Assembly (NCBI GenBank): GCA_002687175.1
Contig: NYZP01000034.1
Coordinates: forward strand, 27,951-91,950
Length of the DNA stretch: 64,000 nucleotides
DNA from: Parcubacteria group bacterium
GTDB taxonomy: Bacteria > Patescibacteriota > Patescibacteriia > Buchananbacterales > UBA6539
Direction: 5' to 3'
Below the pieces are notes generated by a model. That model worked only from the letters and a program-made list of their open reading frames with translations, was not told the origin of the DNA and ran no database searches. How positions within the stretch are numbered: position 1 is the stretch's first letter; the number at the start of each line of letters is the position of its first letter. Position numbers and translations under genes: made by a program. Positions 12,588-45,111 of this stretch are shown in pieces.

Positions 12588-14999
12588 ATGATATTAGGAT
12601 TAGGAGAACAAAAAGTAAAAATAGCAAAAAATGCCATGAAGGTGCTGGAAAGTCGTTATCTTCTTAAAGATGAAGAGGGTAACGTGATCGAAAAACCACT
12701 AGAAATGTTTAAGCGAGTGGCCAGTCACATTATTAAAGCTGAAGATCAATATAAGGTTGATAAAGAAAAGAAGGAACAGTTGGAAAAAGCCTTTTTGGAA
12801 ATCATGATTAATTTGGAGTTTTTGCCAAACAGTCCGACTTTTAGTGGAGCGGGAACTAAGCTTGGTCAACTAGCAGCTTGTTTTGTACTCCCAGTTGGCG
12901 ATTCGATGAATGAAATTTTTGAATCAATTAAAAATACTGCTTTAATACATAAGTCAGGTGGTGGTACGGGATTTGCTTTTTCACGTTTGCGACCGGCCAA
13001 AGACCCAGTTCGCTCAACCAGTGGTATGGCTTCCGGGCCAATTTCCTTTATGAACGTTTTTGATGCTGCTACCGAGACCATTAAACAAGGTGGTACCAGG
13101 CGCGGAGCTAACATGGGAATCCTCAGAGTGGATCATCCTGATATCATGGAATTCATTACCGCCAAAGAGGATAATGATAAATTAAATAATTTTAATATTT
13201 CGGTGGCTATTACTGATAAGTTTATGGAAGCCTTGGAGAAAGATGAAGAGTACGATTTAGTTAATCCTCATGACAATAAAGTTTTTGGTCAGTTAAAAGC
13301 TAAAGAAGTTTGGGCGAAGATTCTCCATCACGCTTGGAAGAATGGTGATCCTGGACTTATTTTTATTGATCAAATAAATCGACAGAATCCAACCAGACAC
13401 ATTGGTTTGATTGAAAGTACCAATCCTTGTGGTGAACAACCATTGTTGCCCTATGAATCATGCAATTTGGGGTCCATTAATTTGTCTAATTTTGTTAAAG
13501 AGAAAAAGATTGATTATAATAGATTGAAAGATGTAATTGAAGTATCGATTAGATTTTTGGACAATGTGATTGACATGAATCGTTATCCGCTTAAAGAGAT
13601 TGAGCAGATGACCAAAAATAATCGTAAAGTTGGTTTAGGCGTGATGGGCTGGGCGGATATGTTGATTAAGCTTGGCATTGCCTATAATTCTACAGAAGCG
13701 ATTGACCTTGCCGATGAACTGATGAGTTTCATTCGAAAACATGCTGATAAAGCTTCAGTGGCTTTGGCTAAAGAAAAAGGAGTTTTTCCAAATTTTGAAG
13801 GTAGTAGTTACGACACTCCTGACAGTGAAGGGATGCGAAATTCTACTCGAACGACAGTCGCGCCAACCGGTACTTTAAGTATTATTGCTTCCTGCTCTTC
13901 AGGGATTGAACCAATTTTTGCTTTAGCTTATGTTCGTCGGTCACACATTGGCAGAAAAGGTGACGATTGGGTTGAGTTAATTGAAGTTAATCCCGAGTTT
14001 GAACGTATTGCTAAAGAACGAGGATTTTACTCTAAGGAATTGATGGAAAAAATTTCGCAATCAAATTCCATTCAAGATTTTGAAGAAATTCCTGATGATG
14101 TTAAAAAAGTATTTGTCACTGCCTACGATACTTTGCCAGAATGGCATGTTCGAATGCAAGCAGCTTGGCAGAAACATATTGATCAAGCGGTGTCCAAGAC
14201 CATTAATTTCCCTAACGATGCTTCGGAAGCTGATGTTGCCAAAGCTTATATTTTGGCCCACGAAACTGGTTGCAAGGGAATTACTATTTATCGTGATGGC
14301 AGTCGGGCAGTGCAAGTTTTATCAACTGGTAAAACCAAAAAAGATGCTAAGGCTACTTCTGACTCGGAAGCGCCGGAACAGCCATTCTATAAAAGAGAAC
14401 GGCCAACAGCAATGCGAGGCACAACCTACAAGAATAATATTTCCTATGGAGATCTATATGTCACCATTAATGATGATGAACAAGGCAATCCGTTTGAAAT
14501 TTTTGCGACTATTGGCAAGGCCGGTGGATTTTTCTCGGCCAAGTCAGAAGCGATTTGTCGTTTAGCCTCCCTTTCTCTAAGGGCTGGTATTCCACCCGAA
14601 GAAGTTATTGCTCAAATCAAAGGGATTCGTGGACCAATGCCATCATGGAGTGAAGGTGGTATGGTGCTGTCATTACCAGATGCTATTGCTCAGATTATGA
14701 TAAGACACATTACTAAAGAACAACCTAAGCTCGGTTTAGAATTTAAGTCACAAAGCAGTGAACAAATTAGCAAAGAGGGCATGGGTCAGCCAGCAGTTAA
14801 CCCAATTGCTAACCCAGTTCCCAGCCCAATACCAGTTGCCGTTGGCACTGGTAATCAAAATGGTAATCCAAACGGGGTAACCATTAAACGTGAAATAGCT
14901 GATTACGGTACGGCTCCAGAATGTCCGGAGTGTAGCAGTATCCTAGAAATTTCTGAAGGCTGTTTAAAGTGTAACGGTTGTGGTTATACACATTGCTAG
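12588..14999 (+). CDS. nrdJ: Class II adenosylcobalamin-dependent ribonucleotide reductase (NrdJ) with a C-terminal Cys-rich tail
   Basis: Active-site region 'NPCGEQPLLPYESCNLGSINLS' and overall RNR class II architecture. C-terminal 'CPECSSILEISEGCLKCNGCGYTHC' tail. The start could alternatively be an internal ATG near 12636. Confidence 0.85.
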   Translation: MILGLGEQKVKIAKNAMKVLESRYLLKDEEGNVIEKPLEMFKRVASHIIKAEDQYKVDKEKKEQLEKAFLEIMINLEFLPNSPTFSGAGTKLGQLAACFVLPVGDSMNEIFESIKNTALIHKSGGGTGFAFSRLRPAKDPVRSTSGMASGPISFMNVFDAATETIKQGGTRRGANMGILRVDHPDIMEFITAKEDNDKLNNFNISVAITDKFMEALEKDEEYDLVNPHDNKVFGQLKAKEVWAKILHHAWKNGDPGLIFIDQINRQNPTRHIGLIESTNPCGEQPLLPYESCNLGSINLSNFVKEKKIDYNRLKDVIEVSIRFLDNVIDMNRYPLKEIEQMTKNNRKVGLGVMGWADMLIKLGIAYNSTEAIDLADELMSFIRKHADKASVALAKEKGVFPNFEGSSYDTPDSEGMRNSTRTTVAPTGTLSIIASCSSGIEPIFALAYVRRSHIGRKGDDWVELIEVNPEFERIAKERGFYSKELMEKISQSNSIQDFEEIPDDVKKVFVTAYDTLPEWHVRMQAAWQKHIDQAVSKTINFPNDASEADVAKAYILAHETGCKGITIYRDGSRAVQVLSTGKTKKDAKATSDSEAPEQPFYKRERPTAMRGTTYKNNISYGDLYVTINDDEQGNPFEIFATIGKAGGFFSAKSEAICRLASLSLRAGIPPEEVIAQIKGIRGPMPSWSEGGMVLSLPDAIAQIMIRHITKEQPKLGLEFKSQSSEQISKEGMGQPAVNPIANPVPSPIPVAVGTGNQNGNPNGVTIKREIADYGTAPECPECSSILEISEGCLKCNGCGYTHC

Positions 15000-15137: not shown

Positions 15138-15659
15138 TTATGTCTCCTCTTGCCTGTTCTTTGCGAGAGCTTTTTCGAACATTTTTTGCATCTCTTCTTC
15201 CAGGCTCCACCGGGGAATCGGTTCTGCGTACCAGTTAGCGTCGAATAGGAGCTTGGAAAATTCCAGTAACTCTTCCCAGCTTGCGTCGCCATGAGTAAAT
15301 TGGAGAAATCCTACCTCAACTTCAGAGCTGTCCAATTCGACTGTTATCGCACTGAGAAGCGAGCATCCGGGCGGACCCATCGCTATTTCTCCTTCGTTGG
15401 TTAGTGTGGTAGTGGCGAGGTCGAACCAGAGCCAATGAGAGTCAGAAAACTCGAACCGCGGATTACGCCAGTCATCGCTACTCATACTCCGCCTAACACC
15501 AATGACGCCTGGGGCGAATTCCTGAACCTCCGCCGGAGATCCGTAGAAGGTCGGAGGGTCTTCCTCTTTGGCTACTACCAGAAGTTGCTTTCCTGTTAGC
15601 TTTTGCCGTTCTTCGGTATCGGTCATGACCTTTTCCTCTCGAGTCATTTTCACGATCAT
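15138..15659 (-). CDS. Hypothetical protein in a GC-elevated segment with its own promoter and terminator
   Basis: The listed ORF is 15138..15701; the likely start is 'MIVKMTREEK' (15659) or the 'MTDTEE' ATG (15626, preceded by a 'gagga' SD). A minus-strand promoter TTGACA-17-GATAAT lies around 15716-15688, and a minus-strand terminator hairpin at 15066-15110. GC is visibly higher than in neighbouring genes. Confidence 0.45.
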   Translation of the reverse strand: MIVKMTREEKVMTDTEERQKLTGKQLLVVAKEEDPPTFYGSPAEVQEFAPGVIGVRRSMSSDDWRNPRFEFSDSHWLWFDLATTTLTNEGEIAMGPPGCSLLSAITVELDSSEVEVGFLQFTHGDASWEELLEFSKLLFDANWYAEPIPRWSLEEEMQKMFEKALAKNRQEET

Positions 15660-15727
15660 TTTAGTTGACCTAGAACAATATATCTTATTATTATCACGCA
15701 TTATATTTAATTGTCAAGACTATCTTA

Positions 15728-16267
15728 TTGGTTTATAATAATGTAATGAAAAGCGACCTGGGAAAAATCCATGTCTACACTGGTGACGGCAAAGGAAAAA
15801 CCACTTCGTCATTTGGTTTAACCATGCGCGCCATTGGTGCCGGCTATAAAGTTTATATTATTCAGTTTCTCAAAGGTCAGGACTATAGTGAATTAAAGAT
15901 CATAAAAAAATTGCCTAAAGTTGGTTTTAAACGTTTTGGTCTAAAAACTTTTGTTTATCAAAAAGGCACCAGAGTGGACAAGAGTTTAGCCAAGCAGGCT
16001 TTAGACTGGTCATTCAAAATTGTTAAGTCGGGAAAATATGACATGGTAATCTTAGACGAAATATTTCCCGCAGTTTTTTTTAAACTTATTAAAAACAGTG
16101 ACATCATAAAAATTATCAAAGCCAAGCCAGAAAATGTTGAGCTGGTAATGACTGGCCGTCGGGCTCCTGAGCAAGTTATTAAATTGGCTGATTACGTTAC
16201 TGATATGAAAGAAGTTAAACATCCTTACCAAAAAGGCTTGGTGGCCAGGAAGGGGATTGAGGATTAG
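15728..16267 (+). CDS. cobO: Cob(I)alamin (corrinoid) adenosyltransferase, CobA/CobO/BtuR family
   Basis: 'IHVYTGDGKGKTTSSFGLTMRAIGAGYKVYIIQFLKG' matches the P-loop and N-terminal signature of CobA-type ATP:corrinoid adenosyltransferases. The start may be the ATG at 15746. Confidence 0.7.
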   Translation: MVYNNVMKSDLGKIHVYTGDGKGKTTSSFGLTMRAIGAGYKVYIIQFLKGQDYSELKIIKKLPKVGFKRFGLKTFVYQKGTRVDKSLAKQALDWSFKIVKSGKYDMVILDEIFPAVFFKLIKNSDIIKIIKAKPENVELVMTGRRAPEQVIKLADYVTDMKEVKHPYQKGLVARKGIED

Positions 16268-16270
16268 GTT
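16251..16270 (+). repeat. Direct repeat A (20/20 identical with 17998-18017): the 3' end of cobO, encoding '...VARKGIED*'
   Basis: 'aggggattgaggattaggtt' recurs 1.73 kb downstream. The second copy still encodes 'VVARKGIED*' but with synonymous codon changes (gcc agg -> gct aga). Confidence 0.8.
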
Positions 16271-16289
16271 GTAGGAGATTATTGTTGAT

Positions 16290-16540
16290 TGGCATTATCA
16301 TCAAGGTTGTCATAAATTTAGTGGCCCAGCCCTGAAGGGCAGGGCTATCGTGTAATTGTTATAAGCAGGTGACGAGAGTAGTCCCGCCGGAGGCGGGGCT
16401 TTATTGTATATCCCTGGACTAAAGGATTGGCCTGGGCGAAGGTGGGTACTGAGGTAGATCCATCCATCATTTTATGGGTACGGGGGGGTTGAGAAGGTTG
16501 GGGTAGGGTTTGAAATAGTAAGGGAGTTGATGTAATATAG
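16290..16540 (+). other. GC-rich, hairpin-dense noncoding segment at the left end of the insertion
   Basis: Hairpins 'gccc(a)gccct-UGAA-gggc(a)gggc' (16323-16344) and 'ccgcc-gga-ggcgg' (16385-16397), followed by a G-rich tract (16473-16512). Confidence 0.4.
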
Positions 16541-16544
16541 ATTT

Positions 16545-17978
16545 ATGGAAAGAGAATTAAATTACAATCCAGAAGCTGAGGTTCGCAAGGAACGCACTTC
16601 TCTAAGGGAAATTTTTACTTTAGCAAAAGGCAAAATAGTTGAAGAGCTAATAAAATTTTTGTCGAAAAAAGATGACGAAAAAGTTGAAGCATATGTTAAA
16701 AAGGTGGGAAAAATGGCTGATCTTAATAGAGCCACTGGAGATTTTTTTCGTTCACTTATACCACAATCCTTAAATCTCCCGCAACGGGAATATGAGCATA
16801 CCGATGAAAGAAATGTATATGAGCATCTTGTTGACAATGCGCAATCTGTCCAACAACGTCGTCATCAACAACCAGAAACTATCTCTGGAGAATCTTATAA
16901 AGATTATGCAGATAATCTAGATGACCCCAGTCTTTCTGAAGCCTCGGAAAAAATCAGTGCAGTAGAGGAATCTGAAACTGGTGGGGTTAAGACTCAAAGT
17001 GCAATAGCGTCATATTCACAGGAAGGTGGAAAGAATGTAGTTAGAGAATTTGTTTATAATAATTTTCATACAATGAAAGATGGCAGAGCAGTTAGTTTAT
17101 CATATGCCGCACTCTTGATCGTAGATATTAAAAGTGGTCAAGGAATCGAATTAAAACAATTACTGCCTACTGGCTATGAATTTGTTCCTTCTCAACTTAA
17201 CGAGAGGACTCTTGAATTAGTCAAGGAGAAGGGAGAATCAAGCTCAAAGCTCATCTCACGTTTAATGCGTCATGACCTTAAGGAATACAGAGGAACGAAA
17301 GAAGCAAAGGACAATTTTGTCCTTGCAGGGAAAAAGGTGGAGTATGGCGATCTAACTGAAAAAGGAGGTATGCTATCTCTCTTACATGAGATTGCTCATA
17401 GCTGGCAAAGGGCTCATGATTTGGCAGAAGGGCGATATAACTTTGAAGATTTTTATAAAGAAGTTGGCCTGGAAGTAGCAGTGTTAAATTCTATCAGGAA
17501 AGAAGTTGAAGCAGGAGAATGGGAGCAAGAAGATTATCAAAACAGAGTTCTACCCGAGACGATAGCTGACCTAAAGAAGATTGGTGTAGAAATTGACGAA
17601 GATTATTTTTACCAGACAGACAGACCTGGTCGAAAAGGAGAAATTCGGATAAGAAGGTTGGGCGAAGAGCTACCTAGTGGTGAGTACTCATATGATCACT
17701 TTTTTATCAAAACTGATAAACTTGCCCCCTTGGTTGATGATTACGCCAGAGAAGAACGAGATGCCTGGGCTCATGCCATTCGAGTTTTGCGTTTCTTAAG
17801 AAAAAAAGGGATTGATCTTGAACCACAGCTTAAGAGCTCAAAAGATTTTAGAGAAATTATTGACCCCGCTTTAGGCTCGTATCAAAAAAGTTTAGACAAG
17901 GAAGTTGAGTTTTCCGCCGAACCTGAAAGTAGAAAATTTCTTCGAAGAAAATCAATTGACCAAGCAGATGCGGTCTGA
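16545..17978 (+). CDS. Hypothetical 477-aa protein with an HExxH motif ('LLHEIAHSW'), possibly metallopeptidase-like, encoded inside the insertion
   Basis: The ORF is intact. I recognise no family fold beyond the HEIAH motif. GC is intermediate to high. Confidence 0.4.
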   Translation: MERELNYNPEAEVRKERTSLREIFTLAKGKIVEELIKFLSKKDDEKVEAYVKKVGKMADLNRATGDFFRSLIPQSLNLPQREYEHTDERNVYEHLVDNAQSVQQRRHQQPETISGESYKDYADNLDDPSLSEASEKISAVEESETGGVKTQSAIASYSQEGGKNVVREFVYNNFHTMKDGRAVSLSYAALLIVDIKSGQGIELKQLLPTGYEFVPSQLNERTLELVKEKGESSSKLISRLMRHDLKEYRGTKEAKDNFVLAGKKVEYGDLTEKGGMLSLLHEIAHSWQRAHDLAEGRYNFEDFYKEVGLEVAVLNSIRKEVEAGEWEQEDYQNRVLPETIADLKKIGVEIDEDYFYQTDRPGRKGEIRIRRLGEELPSGEYSYDHFFIKTDKLAPLVDDYAREERDAWAHAIRVLRFLRKKGIDLEPQLKSSKDFREIIDPALGSYQKSLDKEVEFSAEPESRKFLRRKSIDQADAV

Positions 17979-17982
17979 AATG

Positions 17983-18017
17983 ACGTGGTTGCTAGAAAGG
18001 GGATTGAGGATTAGGTT
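17983..18017 (+). pseudogene. Displaced partial duplicate of the cobO 3' end (direct repeat B)
   Basis: A short frame 'NDVVARKGIED*' ends in the same 20-bp sequence as cobO. The identity is higher at the protein level than at the DNA level. Confidence 0.6.
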
Positions 18018-18212
18018 ATAGTAAAGTTAATATAGTTTGCTAAATAAAATCGCCATAGTGATAGATGACGATTTTTTTGACAGAAATCAGTTTGATTATT
18101 TTCTTATTTCGTGATAAAACAAGCTTATTATTGCACTTTGAAATTACCATAACACAAATTTGTGTTTACCAATTTAAATCCGGAAGCGGGTAGCTTACAA
18201 GGAGAAGGCACC

Positions 18213-20003
18213 ATGAAAAATGAAGGTGAAGTTGTTAAGCTCTCGCTACCACGAGGGTATACTAAACTACCAGTTGAAGAACTGGAAAGTCTGTACCGCG
18301 AGATCGAGGATCGCCGCACCGATGATGCCGAGCTGGCCGAGACACTTAAGCATCGGTTAAGAAAGGTCATCAGACGTAGGAAAGGGTCTTTAAGTATTGC
18401 TACAACAACTCCGTCAATTGAGCTTGATTCCGGTTTGCCAAGTTTTCCGGTACACAACACCGGAGGTTTGCCGGTTGGCGGGGCGAATTGTCTGCTTGAT
18501 CCGATCTCAATTGTTCATGAACAATGGTTCAGAGTTGTTAAGGAAATTGCCTGCGGCCTGATTGGCCAAACCGATGGGATAACTCCTACATTCAGTATTG
18601 AGGAAGTGCGCGACGACAGAAAGAGTGCCGTCCGCTTTGTAGTTCGTTGGAGTATTCCACGATTTTTGAGTATTGAAGATCTGTTAGGGGTCTTCAAAGT
18701 TACTCAAGAATCTTTTAGGAGCCGTCAGGTGACTGGACACAAAAGCGTTGATCGACCAAAAGCCAGTGGCTGGGAGCAAGTTATTAGCTACTATGACGTT
18801 AATGACCATATTGTTAAAGGCCGCCGAGGTGTCTATTTTGGGCCTGAAGGTGATTGGGATAATCATGCTACTGGCGTAATCGTGTCGCGACAGTTCAAAA
18901 ATACTAGCGAAGCCATGTATCTGCAGTCGGAGTATCCGGACGAATTTCTTTCACGTTGGGCTCAAACAAAACCGAAAAAGTGTGAGACATTCATCGAAGT
19001 TCGACTGCCGTCAGAAAAGGAAAAGTTTACCCAGCAGGAAGACGCCTTGTATCTGGTGGTTCAGTTGGCGTTTTTGTTCGCCAAACAAAAACGTTTAGAA
19101 AAGCGTCTTCTAATGGCCGCTATTTTCAAAGCGCTCAACCGAGTCGGCACCGCGCCGATCGCCAGAGAGAAGCTGTTTGGTATGCGTGAAATTTTAGAGG
19201 CGGTTGAGCGTACTTTGTTACTGCCACTGGAACAACCAGTGCTGGCTCAAGAGCTGGGTATTGTTCCGGAATCCATTCTGGAGGTCGGCGTTAAGGGAGT
19301 GGGCAAGACTTTTCTGGCTCATTACCTGATGGCCGGTGATTACGCGGCCATTTTTGTGGCCATTAATTGCAGTTCGTTGTTGATCGATCTTCAGCAAAGA
19401 GGTGCTTCTATCTTGGAACGGATCGATCAGATTTCCGATGAATGCCAGCTACCGGTGGTGTTGATTATCGATGACATTGATATTGTTCTGGATAAAAAGG
19501 AAAAAACAGTGGCTATGGTACTCAACTGGATGCAAAGTATCCGGCAGAAAGGTTTTTACATTCTGGCCACCACCAACTATCCGGAACGGATCGATGACCG
19601 GATGATGGAACCTGGACGGTTGTCTCGCATCTTGCACGTTGACTTGCCTAATCCACAGGATCGTTGTGGAGTGTTAGACAGCCACACCAAGGATCTACCG
19701 ATTGCCGAAAAAGAACGGCAAGCGGTCATTAAGTGGTTGGCCAAGGAAACCAAGGGCTGGACCCAGCGTTTTCTTTGGGAGTTAGTCCAAGAGGCCGCCC
19801 GTAACTGTGGTTTGGCCTTACTTGGCGGAAAAATTCAAAGTCAGGCTAATGGCACCGAAGTGATGCTCAAGCGGGAGCACTTTGAACAAGCGTTAAAGGA
19901 ATTGTCCCAGCGCATTGATAAGAAAAGTATTGGTGAGGAGAACGATAGGGTTCATAAATTTGTGAGTAAGAAGAGGCAAGAGATTGGTTTTCGGACCGAT
20001 TGA
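18213..20003 (+). CDS. Classic-clade AAA+ ATPase (CDC48/FtsH-like ATPase module) with an uncharacterised N-terminal domain of about 330 aa
   Basis: Walker A 'GVKGVGKT', Walker B 'VVLIIDDID', and second region of homology 'LATTNYPERIDDRMMEPGRLSRILHVDLPNPQDR'. SD 'aaggag' precedes the ATG at 18213 (the track ORF starts at 18162). GC is clearly elevated. A 16-bp perfect palindrome 'aacacaaatttgtgtt' lies about 50 bp upstream. Confidence 0.65.
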   Translation: MKNEGEVVKLSLPRGYTKLPVEELESLYREIEDRRTDDAELAETLKHRLRKVIRRRKGSLSIATTTPSIELDSGLPSFPVHNTGGLPVGGANCLLDPISIVHEQWFRVVKEIACGLIGQTDGITPTFSIEEVRDDRKSAVRFVVRWSIPRFLSIEDLLGVFKVTQESFRSRQVTGHKSVDRPKASGWEQVISYYDVNDHIVKGRRGVYFGPEGDWDNHATGVIVSRQFKNTSEAMYLQSEYPDEFLSRWAQTKPKKCETFIEVRLPSEKEKFTQQEDALYLVVQLAFLFAKQKRLEKRLLMAAIFKALNRVGTAPIAREKLFGMREILEAVERTLLLPLEQPVLAQELGIVPESILEVGVKGVGKTFLAHYLMAGDYAAIFVAINCSSLLIDLQQRGASILERIDQISDECQLPVVLIIDDIDIVLDKKEKTVAMVLNWMQSIRQKGFYILATTNYPERIDDRMMEPGRLSRILHVDLPNPQDRCGVLDSHTKDLPIAEKERQAVIKWLAKETKGWTQRFLWELVQEAARNCGLALLGGKIQSQANGTEVMLKREHFEQALKELSQRIDKKSIGEENDRVHKFVSKKRQEIGFRTD

Positions 20004-20020
20004 TTGTTTACGGCTCGAGT

Positions 20021-20052
20021 CAAATAAGACTTGAGCCATTTTTTTAGAAGGA
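20021..20052 (+). terminator. Terminator after the AAA+ gene
   Basis: 'ggctcgagtc aaataa gacttgagcc' followed by a T7 run. Confidence 0.6.
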
Positions 20053-20161
20053 ATTTATATTAAATATCTAAGTGTGTCTTGACAAATTCGGTAATGTTTG
20101 ATAGTGTTTTATGATGTTAAAAATAGCGGCGGCTGTTCAAAGTTAGAGGAGGAAAATAGCT

Positions 20162-20416
20162 ATGAAAGTCGTAGTAATGAGAAATGCCTTAGATGAGCTG
20201 GGGAAGAGGATGGTTATGGGAATCGTCGAAGCCATTGGTGGTGAAATCCTCAGCGCTCCAGACACCATGGTTGCCTTGGCAAATGACGACTGCAAAGATG
20301 GTCCAAGTATCATTTGCAGCATCATGAAGGATGAGAGACAGACATTTACGGCTGTCGAAGAATTGGCAGGCAAACAAGAGATTGAGGTTGTCAATCTTGA
20401 CTTCATGAAGGTATAA
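20162..20416 (+). CDS. Small (84-aa) hypothetical protein with a strong RBS and its own terminator
   Basis: SD 'agaggagg' lies 8 nt upstream of the ATG. A perfect hairpin terminator 'aggtcgtcaaaa/ttttgacgacct' plus T-run at 20451-20480. Confidence 0.5.
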   Translation: MKVVVMRNALDELGKRMVMGIVEAIGGEILSAPDTMVALANDDCKDGPSIICSIMKDERQTFTAVEELAGKQEIEVVNLDFMKV

Positions 20417-20518
20417 CATTCTTGCAAAATGACCATGCTTTTTAACACAAAAGGTCGTCAAAATTTTGACGACCTCTTTTTTTATTTATGCTATCTACTT
20501 ATCCCCATCACGGTTTAT

Positions 20519-20547: not shown

Positions 20548-20571
20548 CATATTACCTTAAAAAATAGTTTT

Positions 20572-20760
20572 AATTTCAGGGAAGTGAGGTGTGATTCCTC
20601 CGCTGACCCGCAACTGTGAAACCTCTATCTAAATTAGGTAAGGGGTTAAGCCAGACCACTGAAATTAGAGCTAACTATAATTCACTAAGCTCTTCGAGGT
20701 ACGAGAGTCGGTGATGTCTGATATGGACATTTTCGCTCTCCCTTGAACAGGGAGATTTTT
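20572..20760 (+). promoter_or_regulatory. Cobalamin (AdoCbl) riboswitch with an SD-sequestering terminator-like expression platform
   Basis: 'cagGGAAGtgaGGTGtgAtTCCtccGCTGaCCCGCAACTGTgAA' matches the conserved 5' core of the cobalamin riboswitch. A B12-box-like 'AAGCCAGACCACTG' lies at about 20647-20660. The 3' hairpin 'ctccc ttgaaca gggag' plus U-run (20735-20760) pairs with the 'agggag' SD 9 nt upstream of the ATG at 20766. Confidence 0.7.
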
Positions 20761-20765
20761 AATTT

Positions 20766-22643
20766 ATGAGAACAAAAAGAAATGGTATTCTACCATTCTT
20801 GACTCCTCGGCTCGGAAATAAAAAGTCTAAGACTTTTTATTTCTCTCGCTCTACGTCGTCAATCAAGAATTTTTGTTTAAGCTTAGCGGCCGTGGCAATG
20901 TTGCTGCAGCCGGTTTTAGCTGCCGCCGGAGTTTCTGAAGGCGTTAGCTATTTGGAGGCACAAACTCAAGATCCATGGATTACCATGGCTTTAGTTGCTG
21001 CCGGTGAGTCTGGTATTTCTACCAGTCACTTAACTTCAGTTTCCGGAACTACGGCGACTGACTATGCTAAAACTATTTTAGCTTTAGCCGCAGTTAACGA
21101 AAATCCCGCAACTTTTGGGGTGATTGATTTTGTGGCCGAACTAAAAAGCTATCACCAAGGCGGTCAAATGGGTGATGACAGTTTGATTAACGACGATGCT
21201 TGGTCAATTTTGGCCTTATCATCAGTCGGTGAATCTGGTACGGACGAAATGGAAGATGCCAAAGATTTTATTTTAGACAATCAAAATCCTGATGGTGGTT
21301 GGAGTTGGGGCGTTGGTGGTGCTAGTGATACCAATGACACCTCAGCCATGATCATGGCGTTAATTGAGTCTGGCGTTAGTGCAGGGGACTCAGTTATTAC
21401 TTCAGCTTTAAATTATTTAGAAGAAACCCAAAACGACGATGGTGGTTTTGGTTTTGACGGAGACTCTGATTCTGATTCTGGTTCAGACTCTTGGGTAATT
21501 GCCGCTTTAATTAAAGCCGGCATTAATCCAAACAGTTGGCAAGAGGAAGGTAACAGTCCAATTGACCATCTAGAAACTTTGCAGGATGATGATGGTGGTT
21601 TTTGGTGGGTGCCAGAAGGTGAATCAGAATTTAACAATAAAGCGATGACTGCTTTTGCGGTAGTTGCTTTAAGTGGCTCATCTTATCCGGTTGGTTACTT
21701 TGCCGGTGGTGACGCAGGTCCGCTAGCTGGAACTTTTAGCCTAAGAATTGAAGGGGCTAGTCGCACCATCTGTGACAGTTTTGTTGAAGCGGAAAACGGT
21801 TTAGATATTGTAGAAAACGGTTCAGAAATTTGTGATTACACTTATACTATTGAAGATACCGCTTTTGGTCCTTACTTGTCAGAAGTGGCTGGTGAAGCGG
21901 CTGAAGGTCTTGAAGGTTGGCTTTATCTGGTTGATTATGTTTCACCGCCAATTGGTGCCGCTGATTATGTTTTAGTAGAAGGCGAAGAAGTACTTTGGTA
22001 CTATGGTGAGTGGGGAATTAGTCCACTGCGATTAATTGTTTCCGATGATGAAGTAGATTCTGGAGACAGCACCACAATTACCGTTGAATATTATGAAGAT
22101 GGTTCTTGGCTACCGTTGGCCGGTGCTACTATTAAAGGTGCTGACCAAGACTACACTGCTAACGGTTCAGGACAATTAGCTCTAGGTTTAGATGATGGTT
22201 TTTACAACCTTTACGCCGAAGAAGATGGTTATGTCAGAAGTGCTAAAGTCGGAGTTACCTTTGGCGAGGGAGTTTCCGGAAATATTGGTTTAACCGTTGA
22301 AATTGATCAAGGCGGTGGCGGTGGTGGCGGTGATGGTATTGGTTTAGACATCGATACCAGTAGTATTGACTTTGGTATTTTAAGTCCTGGTGAAATTGCT
22401 GAAAGTATTGTTGGTATCATCGGTAATGTTGGTACTATTGATATCACAGTCAGCGCCTCGGTTTCTGGTGACACACTGTTTACTTCAAATTTAACAATTA
22501 ACGCCGTTGCTCCTAGTCAGTATTCACAAGACTTTAATGCCGGTGAAGGTGGTTCCGCTACTGTCGCCTTAAGTGTGCCAGAAAATTATCTTGGTTCAGG
22601 TGTTAAAAACGGTGAGCTGATTTTTTGGGCCACGCCTCAATAA
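20766..22643 (+). CDS. Secreted protein with prenyltransferase/terpene-cyclase-like (alpha/alpha toroid) repeats plus C-terminal beta-rich domains; first gene of the riboswitch-controlled locus
   Basis: Signal peptide 'LSLAAVAMLLQPVLAAAG'. Repeats 'NPDGGWSWGVGG..AMIMALIESG', 'NDDGGFGFDG..WVIAALIKAG', 'DDDGGFWWVPEG..AFAVVALSG' are of the QxxDGGW type. A poly-Gly tract is present. Confidence 0.55.
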   Translation: MRTKRNGILPFLTPRLGNKKSKTFYFSRSTSSIKNFCLSLAAVAMLLQPVLAAAGVSEGVSYLEAQTQDPWITMALVAAGESGISTSHLTSVSGTTATDYAKTILALAAVNENPATFGVIDFVAELKSYHQGGQMGDDSLINDDAWSILALSSVGESGTDEMEDAKDFILDNQNPDGGWSWGVGGASDTNDTSAMIMALIESGVSAGDSVITSALNYLEETQNDDGGFGFDGDSDSDSGSDSWVIAALIKAGINPNSWQEEGNSPIDHLETLQDDDGGFWWVPEGESEFNNKAMTAFAVVALSGSSYPVGYFAGGDAGPLAGTFSLRIEGASRTICDSFVEAENGLDIVENGSEICDYTYTIEDTAFGPYLSEVAGEAAEGLEGWLYLVDYVSPPIGAADYVLVEGEEVLWYYGEWGISPLRLIVSDDEVDSGDSTTITVEYYEDGSWLPLAGATIKGADQDYTANGSGQLALGLDDGFYNLYAEEDGYVRSAKVGVTFGEGVSGNIGLTVEIDQGGGGGGGDGIGLDIDTSSIDFGILSPGEIAESIVGIIGNVGTIDITVSASVSGDTLFTSNLTINAVAPSQYSQDFNAGEGGSATVALSVPENYLGSGVKNGELIFWATPQ

Positions 22644-45041: not shown

Positions 45042-45111
45042 CGGCGTGTAGCTCAGGAAGAGCGCCTTGCTTGGGGCAAGGAGGTCGTAGGTGAAAATCC
45101 TGCCACGCCAA
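45042..45111 (+). tRNA. tRNA-like element, possibly tRNA-Pro(UGG), with an atypical T-loop and a short D-loop (could be a pseudo-tRNA or att remnant)
   Basis: Acceptor 'cggcgtg'/'cacgcca' (C1-A72 mismatch), U8 A9, D-stem gctc/gagc, anticodon stem ccttg/caagg, loop 'cuUGGgg' (T33, G37), variable 'aggtc', T-stem gtagg/cctgc. The T-loop is 'tgaaaat' rather than TTCRANY. Confidence 0.3.

What the first reader, a model, noticed from the sequence alone, without database searches (positions are those of the whole stretch)
18140..20480. Foreign-composition module: palindromic operator, classic-clade AAA+ ATPase with novel N-domain, and an 84-aa partner ORF (candidate uncharacterised system)
The ATPase carries the full classic-AAA second region of homology (ATTNYPERIDDRMMEPGRL). 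That motif is normally restricted to CDC48/FtsH/katanin-type unfoldases. Here it is fused to an N-terminal region of about 330 aa that I cannot assign. GC content is well above the genome background. A perfect 16-bp palindrome 'aacacaaatttgtgtt' (18148-18163) sits in its promoter region, and a tightly expressed small ORF (strong SD, own terminator) follows. Together with the adjacent HExxH protein in the cobO-targeted insertion, this resembles accessory protein-remodelling or defence-type cassettes (ATPase plus effector or metalloprotease) rather than housekeeping genes.
Basis: partly seen in the sequence, partly recalled or inferred. Interest (0 to 1): 0.65.

Follow-up and report, generated by a model that had tools for sequence, protein, structure and literature searches.

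The report
Orphan AAA ATPase, not a module
The gene is a real but solitary member of a very rare family of AAA ATPases from candidate-phyla-radiation (CPR) bacteria, with an unassignable N-terminal domain and a degenerate substrate pore; it was inserted into a vitamin-B12 gene cluster and has no conserved link to its neighbours, so the proposed three-gene "system" is not supported.

Summary
A 596-aa classic-clade AAA ATPase lies at 18213-20003. Its roughly 315-aa N-terminal region has no match in Pfam, NCBIfam or PHROGs, by sequence in the PDB, or by fold in the PDB or BFVD. GC3 is 0.48 against a window mean of 0.30. A perfect 16-bp palindrome sits at 18151-18166, 3 nt off the stated position. 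An 84-aa ORF with a Shine-Dalgarno sequence (SD) and its own terminator follows.

In 12 homologue contexts the ATPase is always alone among unrelated housekeeping genes. The 84-aa ORF has no homologue among 5.8 billion proteins. The HExxH protein belongs to a separate CPR family that never neighbours this ATPase. Each gene has its own terminator. PADLOC gives only sub-threshold generic AAA hits.

Sister contigs keep the order RNR-cobO-riboswitch-B12 genes. The 4.2-kb HExxH+ATPase+84-aa segment is therefore a lineage-specific insertion directly after the cobO stop codon.

The ATPase family is tiny: 43 clusters among 1.84 billion representatives. Its motifs are atypical. Walker B is DD. There is no aromatic pore loop 1. 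Glu/Gln replaces the first SRH arginine. An invariant Arg sits at the sensor-2 position.

It is probably an ATP-dependent ring or switch that works through its N-domain rather than a threading unfoldase. Interest is moderate to low.

The parts
18151..18166 (.). Perfect 16-bp palindrome AACACAAATTTGTGTT, 47-62 nt upstream of the ATPase ATG. A possible local regulatory site; function unproven.
   Evidence: Read directly. One of 7 perfect 16-bp palindromes in the window against 1.55 expected. No near copies elsewhere in the window. Not conserved upstream of homologues. The RNA fold of the 5' region is not significant, z=-1.74.
18213..19157 (+). ATPase N-terminal region (aa 1-315). It comprises a helical hairpin (aa 21-60), a disordered linker carrying the conserved GLPxxP...GDxNLL motif (aa 61-95), an alpha/beta domain (aa 100-270) and two linker helices (aa 275-313). 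It is family-specific and its fold is unassigned.
   Evidence: AF2 models with pLDDT 77.7-79.4. 30 invariant residues in the N-domain alignment. The profile finds only 43 proteins among 1.84e9 representatives, and all 10 scanned members of the distant group (P0075-P0098) also carry PF00004. No fold match in the PDB or BFVD. No sequence match in the PDB.
19158..20003 (+). ATPase AAA module plus lid and C-terminal helices (aa 316-596). Walker A GVKGVGKT lies at nt 19287-19310, Walker B VLIIDDID at nt 19458-19481 and the SRH at nt 19566-19622. The invariant Arg519 lies in the lid.
   Evidence: PF00004 at 60.1 bits. p97/VAT alignments. Foldseek against p97 D2 gives TM 0.75. Motif tables.
20012..20037 (+). 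Intrinsic-terminator-like hairpin (10-bp stem plus T7) directly after the ATPase stop codon.
20162..20416 (+). 84-aa ORFan (NCBI hypothetical CMI53_05285) with the same atypical composition as the ATPase. It has its own SD. A TTGACA -35-like box lies at 20079-20084.
   Evidence: Its only hit among 5.8e9 proteins is itself. GC3 0.518. No Pfam, NCBIfam, PADLOC or PHROG hit.
20452..20475 (+). Terminator-like hairpin of the 84-aa ORF (10-bp stem plus T-run). It contains another perfect 16-bp palindrome.
16268..20498 (.). Lineage-specific 4.2-kb insertion between the cobO stop codon and the promoter of the AdoCbl riboswitch. It carries the HExxH gene, the ATPase and the 84-aa ORF.
   Evidence: Sister contigs L094, L095, L098/L099 and L100 go from cobO to the 625-aa gene with a gap of only about 250-700 bp. 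Junctions were mapped by alignment. No repeats of 9 nt or more are shared by the two ends.
16545..17978 (+). 477-aa HExxH protein. It lies in the same insertion but has native composition, and it belongs to an independent CPR family. It is not linked to the ATPase elsewhere.
   Evidence: 37 homologues. Invariant H281, E282, H285 plus the EERDAWAH motif. Homologue contexts lack this ATPase. GC3 0.278.

Best explanation
Identity. Window 18213-20003 encodes a stand-alone member of a very small family found mainly in MAGs labelled Parcubacteria, Paceibacterota or Saccharibacteria (CPR). Each member has one classic-clade AAA module fused to a family-specific N-terminal region of about 315 aa. In this marine Parcubacteria MAG the gene was acquired laterally. 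It sits with a co-compositional ORFan in a 4.2-kb block inserted between cobO and a B12 riboswitch. It has no conserved partner gene.

Inferred mechanism. The AAA module binds ATP and assembles into a ring through the retained trans-acting Arg469, as other classic AAA proteins do. Three features argue against a processive threading unfoldase: pore loop 1 has no aromatic residue and varies in length and sequence, pore loop 2 is shortened, and the catalytic site is rewired. The rewiring consists of Asp for the Walker-B Glu, Glu/Gln for the first SRH Arg, and an invariant Arg at the sensor-2 position. The more likely model is an ATP-gated oligomeric switch or remodeller with slow turnover. In that model the conserved N-domain, rich in invariant Arg, Trp, Tyr and Glu, does the ligand or client recognition.

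The palindrome, the 84-aa ORF and the HExxH protein are neighbours by insertion history, not components of the ATPase.
For: Shown:
- Classic-clade AAA identity. The clade-specific short helix between beta2 and alpha2 is present in the AF2 model as H386-394.
- Across 32 family members Walker A is intact and Walker B is DD, ED or DE. No member has an aromatic pore loop: p97 'MWFG' aligns to 'DLQQ'. The loop varies by 0-7 residues. R469 and R519 are invariant, and position 466 is always E or Q.
- The N-domain is an obligate fusion partner and occurs nowhere else: 43 hits among 1.84e9 representatives, and all 10 scanned distant-group hits also carry PF00004.
- The gene is solo in all 12 contexts examined.
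- Family members were found in only 6 of 185,579 species genomes. Three are CPR-labelled, two are labelled 'bacterium' and one 'Gammaproteobacteria'.
- The insertion is shown by synteny with sister contigs.
- Composition: GC3 0.48 against 0.30. The closest homologue (62% identity) lies in a contig of about 60% GC.
- The N-domain was not found in phages, plasmids or IMG/VR.

From the literature (PMC5039278): classic-clade AAA proteins normally have Ala at the sensor-2 position and need the Arg finger for hydrolysis.
Against: No biochemical data exist, so ring formation, ATPase activity and the non-threading mode are all inferences.
- Some working AAA rings, such as Cdc48 D1, have non-aromatic pore loops, so threading is not excluded.
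- Asp can act as a catalytic base.
- The sensor-2 assignment of R519 rests on HMMER alignments to p97 D1/D2, not on inspected coordinates.
- The ATPase gene is GC-richer than its flanks in 9 of 10 homologue loci and equal in the tenth. Part of the GC excess may therefore be intrinsic to the gene rather than a sign of transfer.
- The N-domain fold search covered only the PDB and BFVD; AFDB was unavailable.
Confidence: 0.6

Rival explanations
1. One reading: a three-gene accessory or defence cassette. An operator-controlled AAA+ ATPase works with an effector (the 84-aa protein) and/or the adjacent HExxH metalloprotease, as in IetAS-type ATPase+protease systems.
For: The three genes lie in one 4.2-kb lineage-specific insertion. 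The ATPase and the 84-aa ORF share an atypical composition. There are weak IetA/IteA hits. The HExxH motif is invariant in its family.
Against: The genes do not co-occur in any of 12 ATPase contexts or 3 HExxH contexts. The 84-aa ORF has no homologue at all. The HExxH gene has native composition, unlike the other two. Terminators separate the genes. The IetA and IteA scores are generic AAA similarity: 18 bits, and 19.8 against a cut-off of 510. No defence genes appear in homologue neighbourhoods.
Confidence: 0.07
2. A canonical substrate-threading unfoldase or disaggregase, a CPR-specific analogue of Cdc48/VAT/PAN. It would use the N-domain as a substrate or adaptor receptor and hand clients to a protease encoded elsewhere.
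For: The best sequence and structure matches are p97, VAT, PAN and FtsH. The classic-clade architecture with an N-domain is typical of such machines. A C-terminal conserved FV...GF tail could be a docking motif.
Against: None of 32 members has an aromatic-hydrophobic-Gly pore loop 1. That loop varies in sequence and length, and pore loop 2 is shortened. The canonical Arg finger position is Glu/Gln, and the Walker-B Glu is Asp in the core family. There is no conserved protease neighbour.
Confidence: 0.2
3. A largely inactive pseudo-ATPase scaffold, like p97 D1 or NSF D2. ATP binding would only stabilise an oligomer that displays six N-domains, and the N-domain would be the true enzyme or binding module.
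For: The catalytic motifs are degenerate: DD, E/Q at the finger position, and the ISS Asp replaced in LMQGIR. The N-domain has many invariant polar and aromatic residues (R141, W146, W187, Y193, Y208, R226, E262, R264, Q275) that suggest a binding or active site.
Against: Walker A, sensor-1 Asn, R469 and R519 are all conserved (R469 and R519 invariant, sensor-1 Asn nearly so) across very divergent members down to 20% identity. This argues for a functional nucleotide cycle. No enzymatic fold was recognised in the N-domain.
Confidence: 0.13

Closest known systems
Cdc48/p97/VAT (NSF/Cdc48/Pex family of classic-clade AAA)
   Same: It gives the best sequence and structure match for the AAA module: phmmer E 7e-39 overall, and Foldseek TM 0.75 to p97 D2. 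The general layout of a substrate- or adaptor-binding N-domain followed by an AAA module and lid is shared.
PAN / Rpt / Mpa-ARC proteasomal ATPases
   Same: Single classic AAA module of similar length, N-terminal helices followed by a globular domain, and partial NCBIfam hits (71 bits).
   Different: No OB fold or coiled-coil/OB signature was detected. Scores are far below the cut-off (71 against 500). The pore loop is missing. There is no C-terminal HbYX-type motif and no proteasome genes nearby.
FtsH
   Same: After the family itself, the next-best hits in the 5.8e9-protein search are FtsH proteins at E about 1e-11. FtsH is the only classic AAA protein common in bacteria.
   Different: No TM or FtsH_ext N-terminus and no M41 peptidase domain. 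TIGR01241 scores 59 bits against a cut-off of 600. This protein is not an FtsH fragment.
IetA/IteA (ATPase of the IetAS anti-phage system)
   Same: An AAA ATPase of comparable core that sometimes sits next to a protease. Weak HMM hits.
   Different: The scores are noise-level for a family assignment: 18 bits, and 19.8 against 510. There is no IetS-like protease partner and no conserved partner of any kind.
Degenerate or non-threading classic AAA rings (p97 D1, NSF D2, Bcs1). This comparison rests on my own knowledge, not on tests here.
   Same: Non-aromatic or absent pore loop 1 and variant acidic Walker-B pairs (ED in Bcs1). These rings assemble or gate rather than thread.
   Different: Those rings are either one ring of a tandem protein or membrane-anchored (Bcs1, with its own Bcs1_N domain). 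No Bcs1_N (PF08740) hit was seen here.

Membership tests
Classic-clade AAA (Pfam PF00004) | PF00004 score above the gathering threshold | tested here: met
   60.1 bits against 21.2, aa 357-477.
Classic-clade AAA (Pfam PF00004) | Walker A GxxGxGK[T/S] | tested here: met
   GVKGVGKT. G362, G364 and K365 are invariant in 32 sequences.
Classic-clade AAA (Pfam PF00004) | Walker B hhhhDE with a catalytic Glu | tested here: inconclusive
   An acidic pair is retained, but it is DD in the window protein and invariantly DD in the 13 core members. It is DD, ED or DE in the wider set.
Classic-clade AAA (Pfam PF00004) | Short alpha-helix insertion between beta2 and alpha2 | tested here: met
   AF2 DSSP gives E380-384, H386-394, H399-411. 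Feature definition from PMC5039278.
Classic-clade AAA (Pfam PF00004) | SRH with sensor-1 Asn and two conserved Arg (p97 R359/R362) | tested here: not met
   Sensor-1 N455 and R469 are conserved. The first Arg position is E466, and it is E or Q in all 32 members.
Classic-clade AAA (Pfam PF00004) | No sensor-2 Arg (Ala in the GAD motif) | tested here: not met
   Invariant R519 aligns with the Ala of p97 D1 and D2 'GAD'. The rule comes from PMC5039278.
Classic-clade AAA unfoldases | Pore loop 1 with the aromatic-hydrophobic-Gly motif | tested here: not met
   p97 MWFG/KLAG aligns to DLQQ. No conserved aromatic in 32 sequences, and the loop length varies.
Cdc48/p97/VAT | Tandem D1-D2 AAA modules plus a double-psi-barrel N-domain; TIGR01243 at or above 802 bits | tested here: not met
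FtsH | TM/FtsH_ext N-terminus and a C-terminal M41 peptidase; TIGR01241 at or above 600 bits | tested here: not met
   59.3 bits. No PF06480 or PF01434 hit.
Vps4/CdvC (meiotic clade) | N-terminal MIT domain, and an extra Arg directly before the Arg finger | tested here: not met
IetAS / other ATPase+effector defence systems | Model hit above threshold and a conserved adjacent effector gene | tested here: not met
   IteA scores 19.8 bits against 510, and PADLOC IetA 18 bits. No conserved neighbour in the 11 loci compared all-against-all.

The most novel reading that the evidence does not exclude
The family is a previously undescribed, deep branch of classic-clade AAA proteins largely confined to CPR bacteria, with a reorganised motor. 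A cis-acting sensor-2 Arg (R519) has taken over from the canonical trans Arg finger, which is now Glu/Gln. The pore loops have been lost. Work is done by an N-terminal domain with a new fold that binds or modifies a still-unknown client. This would be a non-threading mode of action for a single-ring classic AAA protein.
Probability: 0.3. Interest if true: 0.55.

Novelty: new variant of a known kind. Interest (0 to 1): 0.33.

Why it matters
Classic-clade AAA proteins other than FtsH are uncommon in bacteria, and nearly all studied ones thread substrates through aromatic pore loops. This family keeps the fold but changes three hallmark features: it loses the pore loops, replaces the canonical Arg finger, and gains a sensor-2 Arg. 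It could therefore help show how the classic clade diverged from other AAA+ proteins, and what minimal-genome CPR bacteria use such a protein for.

The practical value is limited. The family is extremely rare, it has no genomic context that points to a client, and the proposed multi-gene 'system' is not real. For the scan, the lesson is that adjacency inside one insertion, even with shared odd composition, does not make a functional module.

Tried and rejected
1. Defence-system assignment. PADLOC and NCBIfam give only sub-threshold generic AAA hits. Rejected.
2. Conserved neighbourhood. I looked up called genes around 6 homologues, one distant member and 3 HExxH homologues. I ran all-against-all BLAST of ORFs from 11 loci and tblastn of the neighbours against those loci. 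Only one weak antisense artefact appeared, in L015.
3. Homologues of the 84-aa ORF. None exist.
5. Mobile-element origin. The N-domain is absent from the phage, plasmid and IMG/VR collections. There is no integrase, tRNA (the only tRNA is at 45042), TSD or terminal repeat at the insertion ends.
6. Palindrome as a conserved operator. No related palindrome lies upstream of homologues, there are no further copies in the window, no promoter was called, and the RNA structure is not significant.
7. cobO disruption. cobO is full length, covering Pfam positions 3-171 of 172. Nothing is inserted into it; the insertion starts after its stop codon.
8. Literature. No paper links Parcubacteria with an AAA ATPase of this kind.
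Full report
**What is at 18140-20480**

The region holds four features.
- A perfect 16-bp palindrome, AACACAAATTTGTGTT, at 18151-18166.
- A long ORF. Its biologically sensible start is ATG 18213, preceded by aaggaga. It encodes 596 aa and stops at 20003. A terminator-like hairpin follows at 20012-20037.
- An 84-aa ORF at 20162-20416, with agaggagg upstream.
- A second terminator at 20452-20475.

The GTG start at 18162 in the ORF list, which NCBI also uses (MAF14268.1, 613 aa), overlaps the palindrome. It is not supported by the family alignment, in which all homologues begin at the MK... that corresponds to 18213. The window comes from a marine 'Parcubacteria group bacterium' MAG (Tara station 037, 0.1-0.22 um fraction).

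**The ATPase module**

Pfam PF00004 matches aa 357-477 at 60.1 bits against a cut-off of 21.2. NCBIfam gives only partial, far sub-threshold matches: CDC48 86 bits against 802, PAN 71 against 500, FtsH 59 against 600 and CdvC 46 against 650. phmmer against the PDB is led by p97 and VAT, D1 and D2. An AF2 model built on 13 family sequences has pLDDT 79.4 and pTM 0.74. Its C-terminal half superposes on p97 D2 with TM 0.75. It also contains the short helix between beta2 and alpha2 (H386-394) that defines the classic clade (PMC5039278). The call of a 'classic-clade AAA' is therefore correct.

The motifs are not canonical. In a 13-sequence core alignment and a 32-sequence extended alignment:
- Walker A is intact.
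- Walker B is invariantly DD in the core family, and DD, ED or DE in distant members.
- The segment aligned to the p97 pore loop 1 (MWFG or KLAG) reads DLQQ. No member has a conserved aromatic residue there, and the loop varies in length by up to 7 residues.
- The pore-loop-2 segment is about 8 residues shorter than in p97.
- In the SRH, sensor-1 Asn455 is nearly invariant and Arg469 is invariant. The position of the first arginine (p97 R359/R635) is Glu466, and it is Glu or Gln in all 32 sequences.
- In the lid, invariant Arg519 (GWTQRYL) aligns with the Ala of the classic 'GAD' motif. This is the sensor-2 position, where classic AAA proteins characteristically lack Arg.

The motor looks rewired rather than standard.

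**The N-terminal region**

Residues 1-315 have no hit in Pfam, NCBIfam, PADLOC or PHROGs. A profile against PDB sequences gives a best E of 0.81.

The region is well predicted, with core pLDDT of 85-94. It consists of:
- a helical hairpin (aa 21-60);
- a disordered linker that nevertheless carries the invariant motifs GLPxxP and GDxNLL;
- a six-stranded alpha/beta domain (aa 100-270);
- two linker helices.

An exhaustive HMMER search with the N-domain profile found only 43 proteins with E<=1e-3 among 1.84 billion cluster representatives. All ten members of the distant group that I scanned also carry PF00004. The N-domain therefore appears to be an obligate partner of this AAA module and was not detected elsewhere. 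It is not an FtsH, Cdc48, PAN or Vps4 N-domain.

**Distribution and context**

The 5.8-billion-protein search found 13 full-length relatives at 37-62% identity. The next hits drop straight to generic FtsH similarity at E about 1e-11. A scan of 185,579 species genomes found six carriers. They are labelled Paceibacterota, Parcubacteria group, Saccharibacteria, 'bacterium' (two) and 'Gammaproteobacteria' (one MAG).

I examined the neighbourhoods of six homologues and one distant member using gene calls. I examined five further loci by ORF comparison. Flanking genes differ every time: Mur ligase/GatC/ABC transporter, fumarase-type lyase/OMP decarboxylase, YkuD, hydrolase/DNA pol III delta'/RRF, acylphosphatase/methyltransferases, and Fpg/glycosyltransferase. 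In an all-against-all BLAST of ORFs from 11 loci, the only family shared by more than two loci is the ATPase and its antisense shadows. No defence genes are evident.

**The alleged partners**

The 84-aa protein has exactly one hit in the database, which is itself.

The 477-aa HExxH protein belongs to a separate family of at least 37 CPR hypothetical proteins (Magasanikbacteria, Falkowbacteria, Portnoybacteria, Pacebacteria). Its invariant residues are HExxH plus EERDAWAH. Three of its homologues that I looked up sit next to SecA/SecDF, toxin-antitoxin genes or surface proteins, and never next to this ATPase.

Terminator-like hairpins follow cobO (16380-16400), the HExxH gene (18043-18078), the ATPase and the 84-aa ORF.

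**Composition and insertion**

The compositional claim holds for two of the three genes. Among 49 ORFs (mean GC3 0.30, sd 0.07), the three highest values are the 84-aa ORF (0.518), a minus-strand 187-aa ORFan at 15138-15701 (0.516) and the ATPase (0.482). The HExxH gene (0.278) and cobO (0.378) look native.

A metagenome scan with CobO recovered sister contigs with 65-68% CobO, 72% RNR and 78-86% upstream-gene identity. They keep the order g9896-g11156-RNR-cobO-[riboswitch]-625-aa gene-171-151-179 aa genes. Only about 250-700 bp separate cobO from the 625-aa gene, and none of orf187, HExxH, the ATPase or the 84-aa ORF is present.

Alignments place the left junction directly after the cobO stop codon (16267). 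The right junction is at about 20498, just before TTATCCCCA...TTGACA, which follows the cobO stop directly in the sister contigs. Downstream is an AdoCbl riboswitch at 20553-20717.

The ATPase thus lies in a 4.2-kb lineage-specific insertion into a B12-themed cluster (class II RNR, CobO, and riboswitch-controlled DUF4430 genes). I found no TSD, terminal repeats, integrase or nearby tRNA. The mixed composition suggests more than one acquisition.

Lateral origin of the ATPase is plausible, because its closest relative (62% identity) sits in a contig of about 60% GC. However, the gene is GC-richer than its flanks in 9 of 10 homologue loci and equal in the tenth. Part of the excess may therefore be intrinsic to the gene. 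The N-domain is not found in phage, plasmid or IMG/VR collections.

**The palindrome**

It is real. The window holds seven perfect 16-bp palindromes where Markov simulations give 1.55+-1.17, so it is one of several. It has no close copies elsewhere in the window. It is not accompanied by a recognisable σ70 promoter. It is not matched by any conserved inverted repeat upstream of homologues, and it does not give a significant RNA structure. 'Operator' is possible but unsupported.

**Most likely function**

Shown:
- an ATP-binding classic-AAA fold, with conserved Walker A, an acidic Walker B pair, sensor 1, one SRH arginine and a lid arginine;
- no conserved pore loops;
- a conserved N-domain unique to the family, with many invariant Arg, Trp, Tyr and Glu residues;
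- a solo gene.

Inferred: the protein forms a nucleotide-dependent ring. It acts as an ATP-gated switch or remodeller through its N-domains rather than by threading a polypeptide, with slow or re-wired hydrolysis.

**Verdict**

The ATPase is a genuine member of a new, very rare variant of classic AAA proteins. The 'module/system' reading is not supported. Interest is moderate to low, at 0.33.

Noticed in passing
window 20553-20717 (+): AdoCbl (B12) riboswitch, RF01482, 57.6 bits. It lies upstream of a 625-aa DUF4430/prenyltransferase-like gene (20766-22643) and three small genes. Together with the class II RNR (12588-14999) and cobO (15728-16267) it forms a B12-themed cluster that is syntenic in sister metagenome contigs L094, L095, L098 and L100.
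   Followed up: partly
window 15138-15701 (-): 187-aa ORFan (NCBI hypothetical CMI53_05265), the only long (>=150 aa) minus-strand ORF in the window. Its GC3 of 0.516 matches the ATPase and the 84-aa ORF. It has no Pfam or PHROG hit. It is absent from sister contigs, where RNR and cobO are only 130 bp apart in L094, so it is a second small insertion of foreign composition.
   Followed up: partly
window 16545-17978 (+): The 477-aa HExxH protein defines an uncharacterised family widespread in CPR bacteria (at least 37 homologues, no Pfam model). Invariant residues are H281, E282, H285 and a downstream EERDAWAH motif, which makes it a putative novel zinc-metallopeptidase-like family. Its composition is native, unlike its neighbours in the same insertion.
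   Followed up: partly
window 18151, 18510, 20456, 28172, 36276, 44733, 45986: Seven perfect 16-bp palindromes where about 1.5 are expected from a first-order Markov model. Three fall within 18.1-20.5 kb. One of these (18510, ATTGTTCATGAACAAT) is inside the ATPase coding sequence.
   Followed up: no
window 20143-20461: The 84-aa ORF region is open in three frames: the + ORF, and antisense ORFs of 101 and 90 aa. Combined with the complete lack of homologues, this leaves some doubt that the 84-aa product is a real protein.
   Followed up: no
L098 5800-6320 (sister contig, cobO-riboswitch spacer): The spacer in this sister contig carries its own extra GC-rich hairpin-like inserts, absent from L094 and L095. 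This suggests that the cobO-riboswitch intergenic region is a recurrent site of small insertions.
   Followed up: no
L014 (CAYILY010000008.1): One carrier of the ATPase family is a MAG labelled 'uncultured Gammaproteobacteria'. This is either a mis-binned CPR contig or a sign that the family is not strictly confined to CPR bacteria.
   Followed up: no
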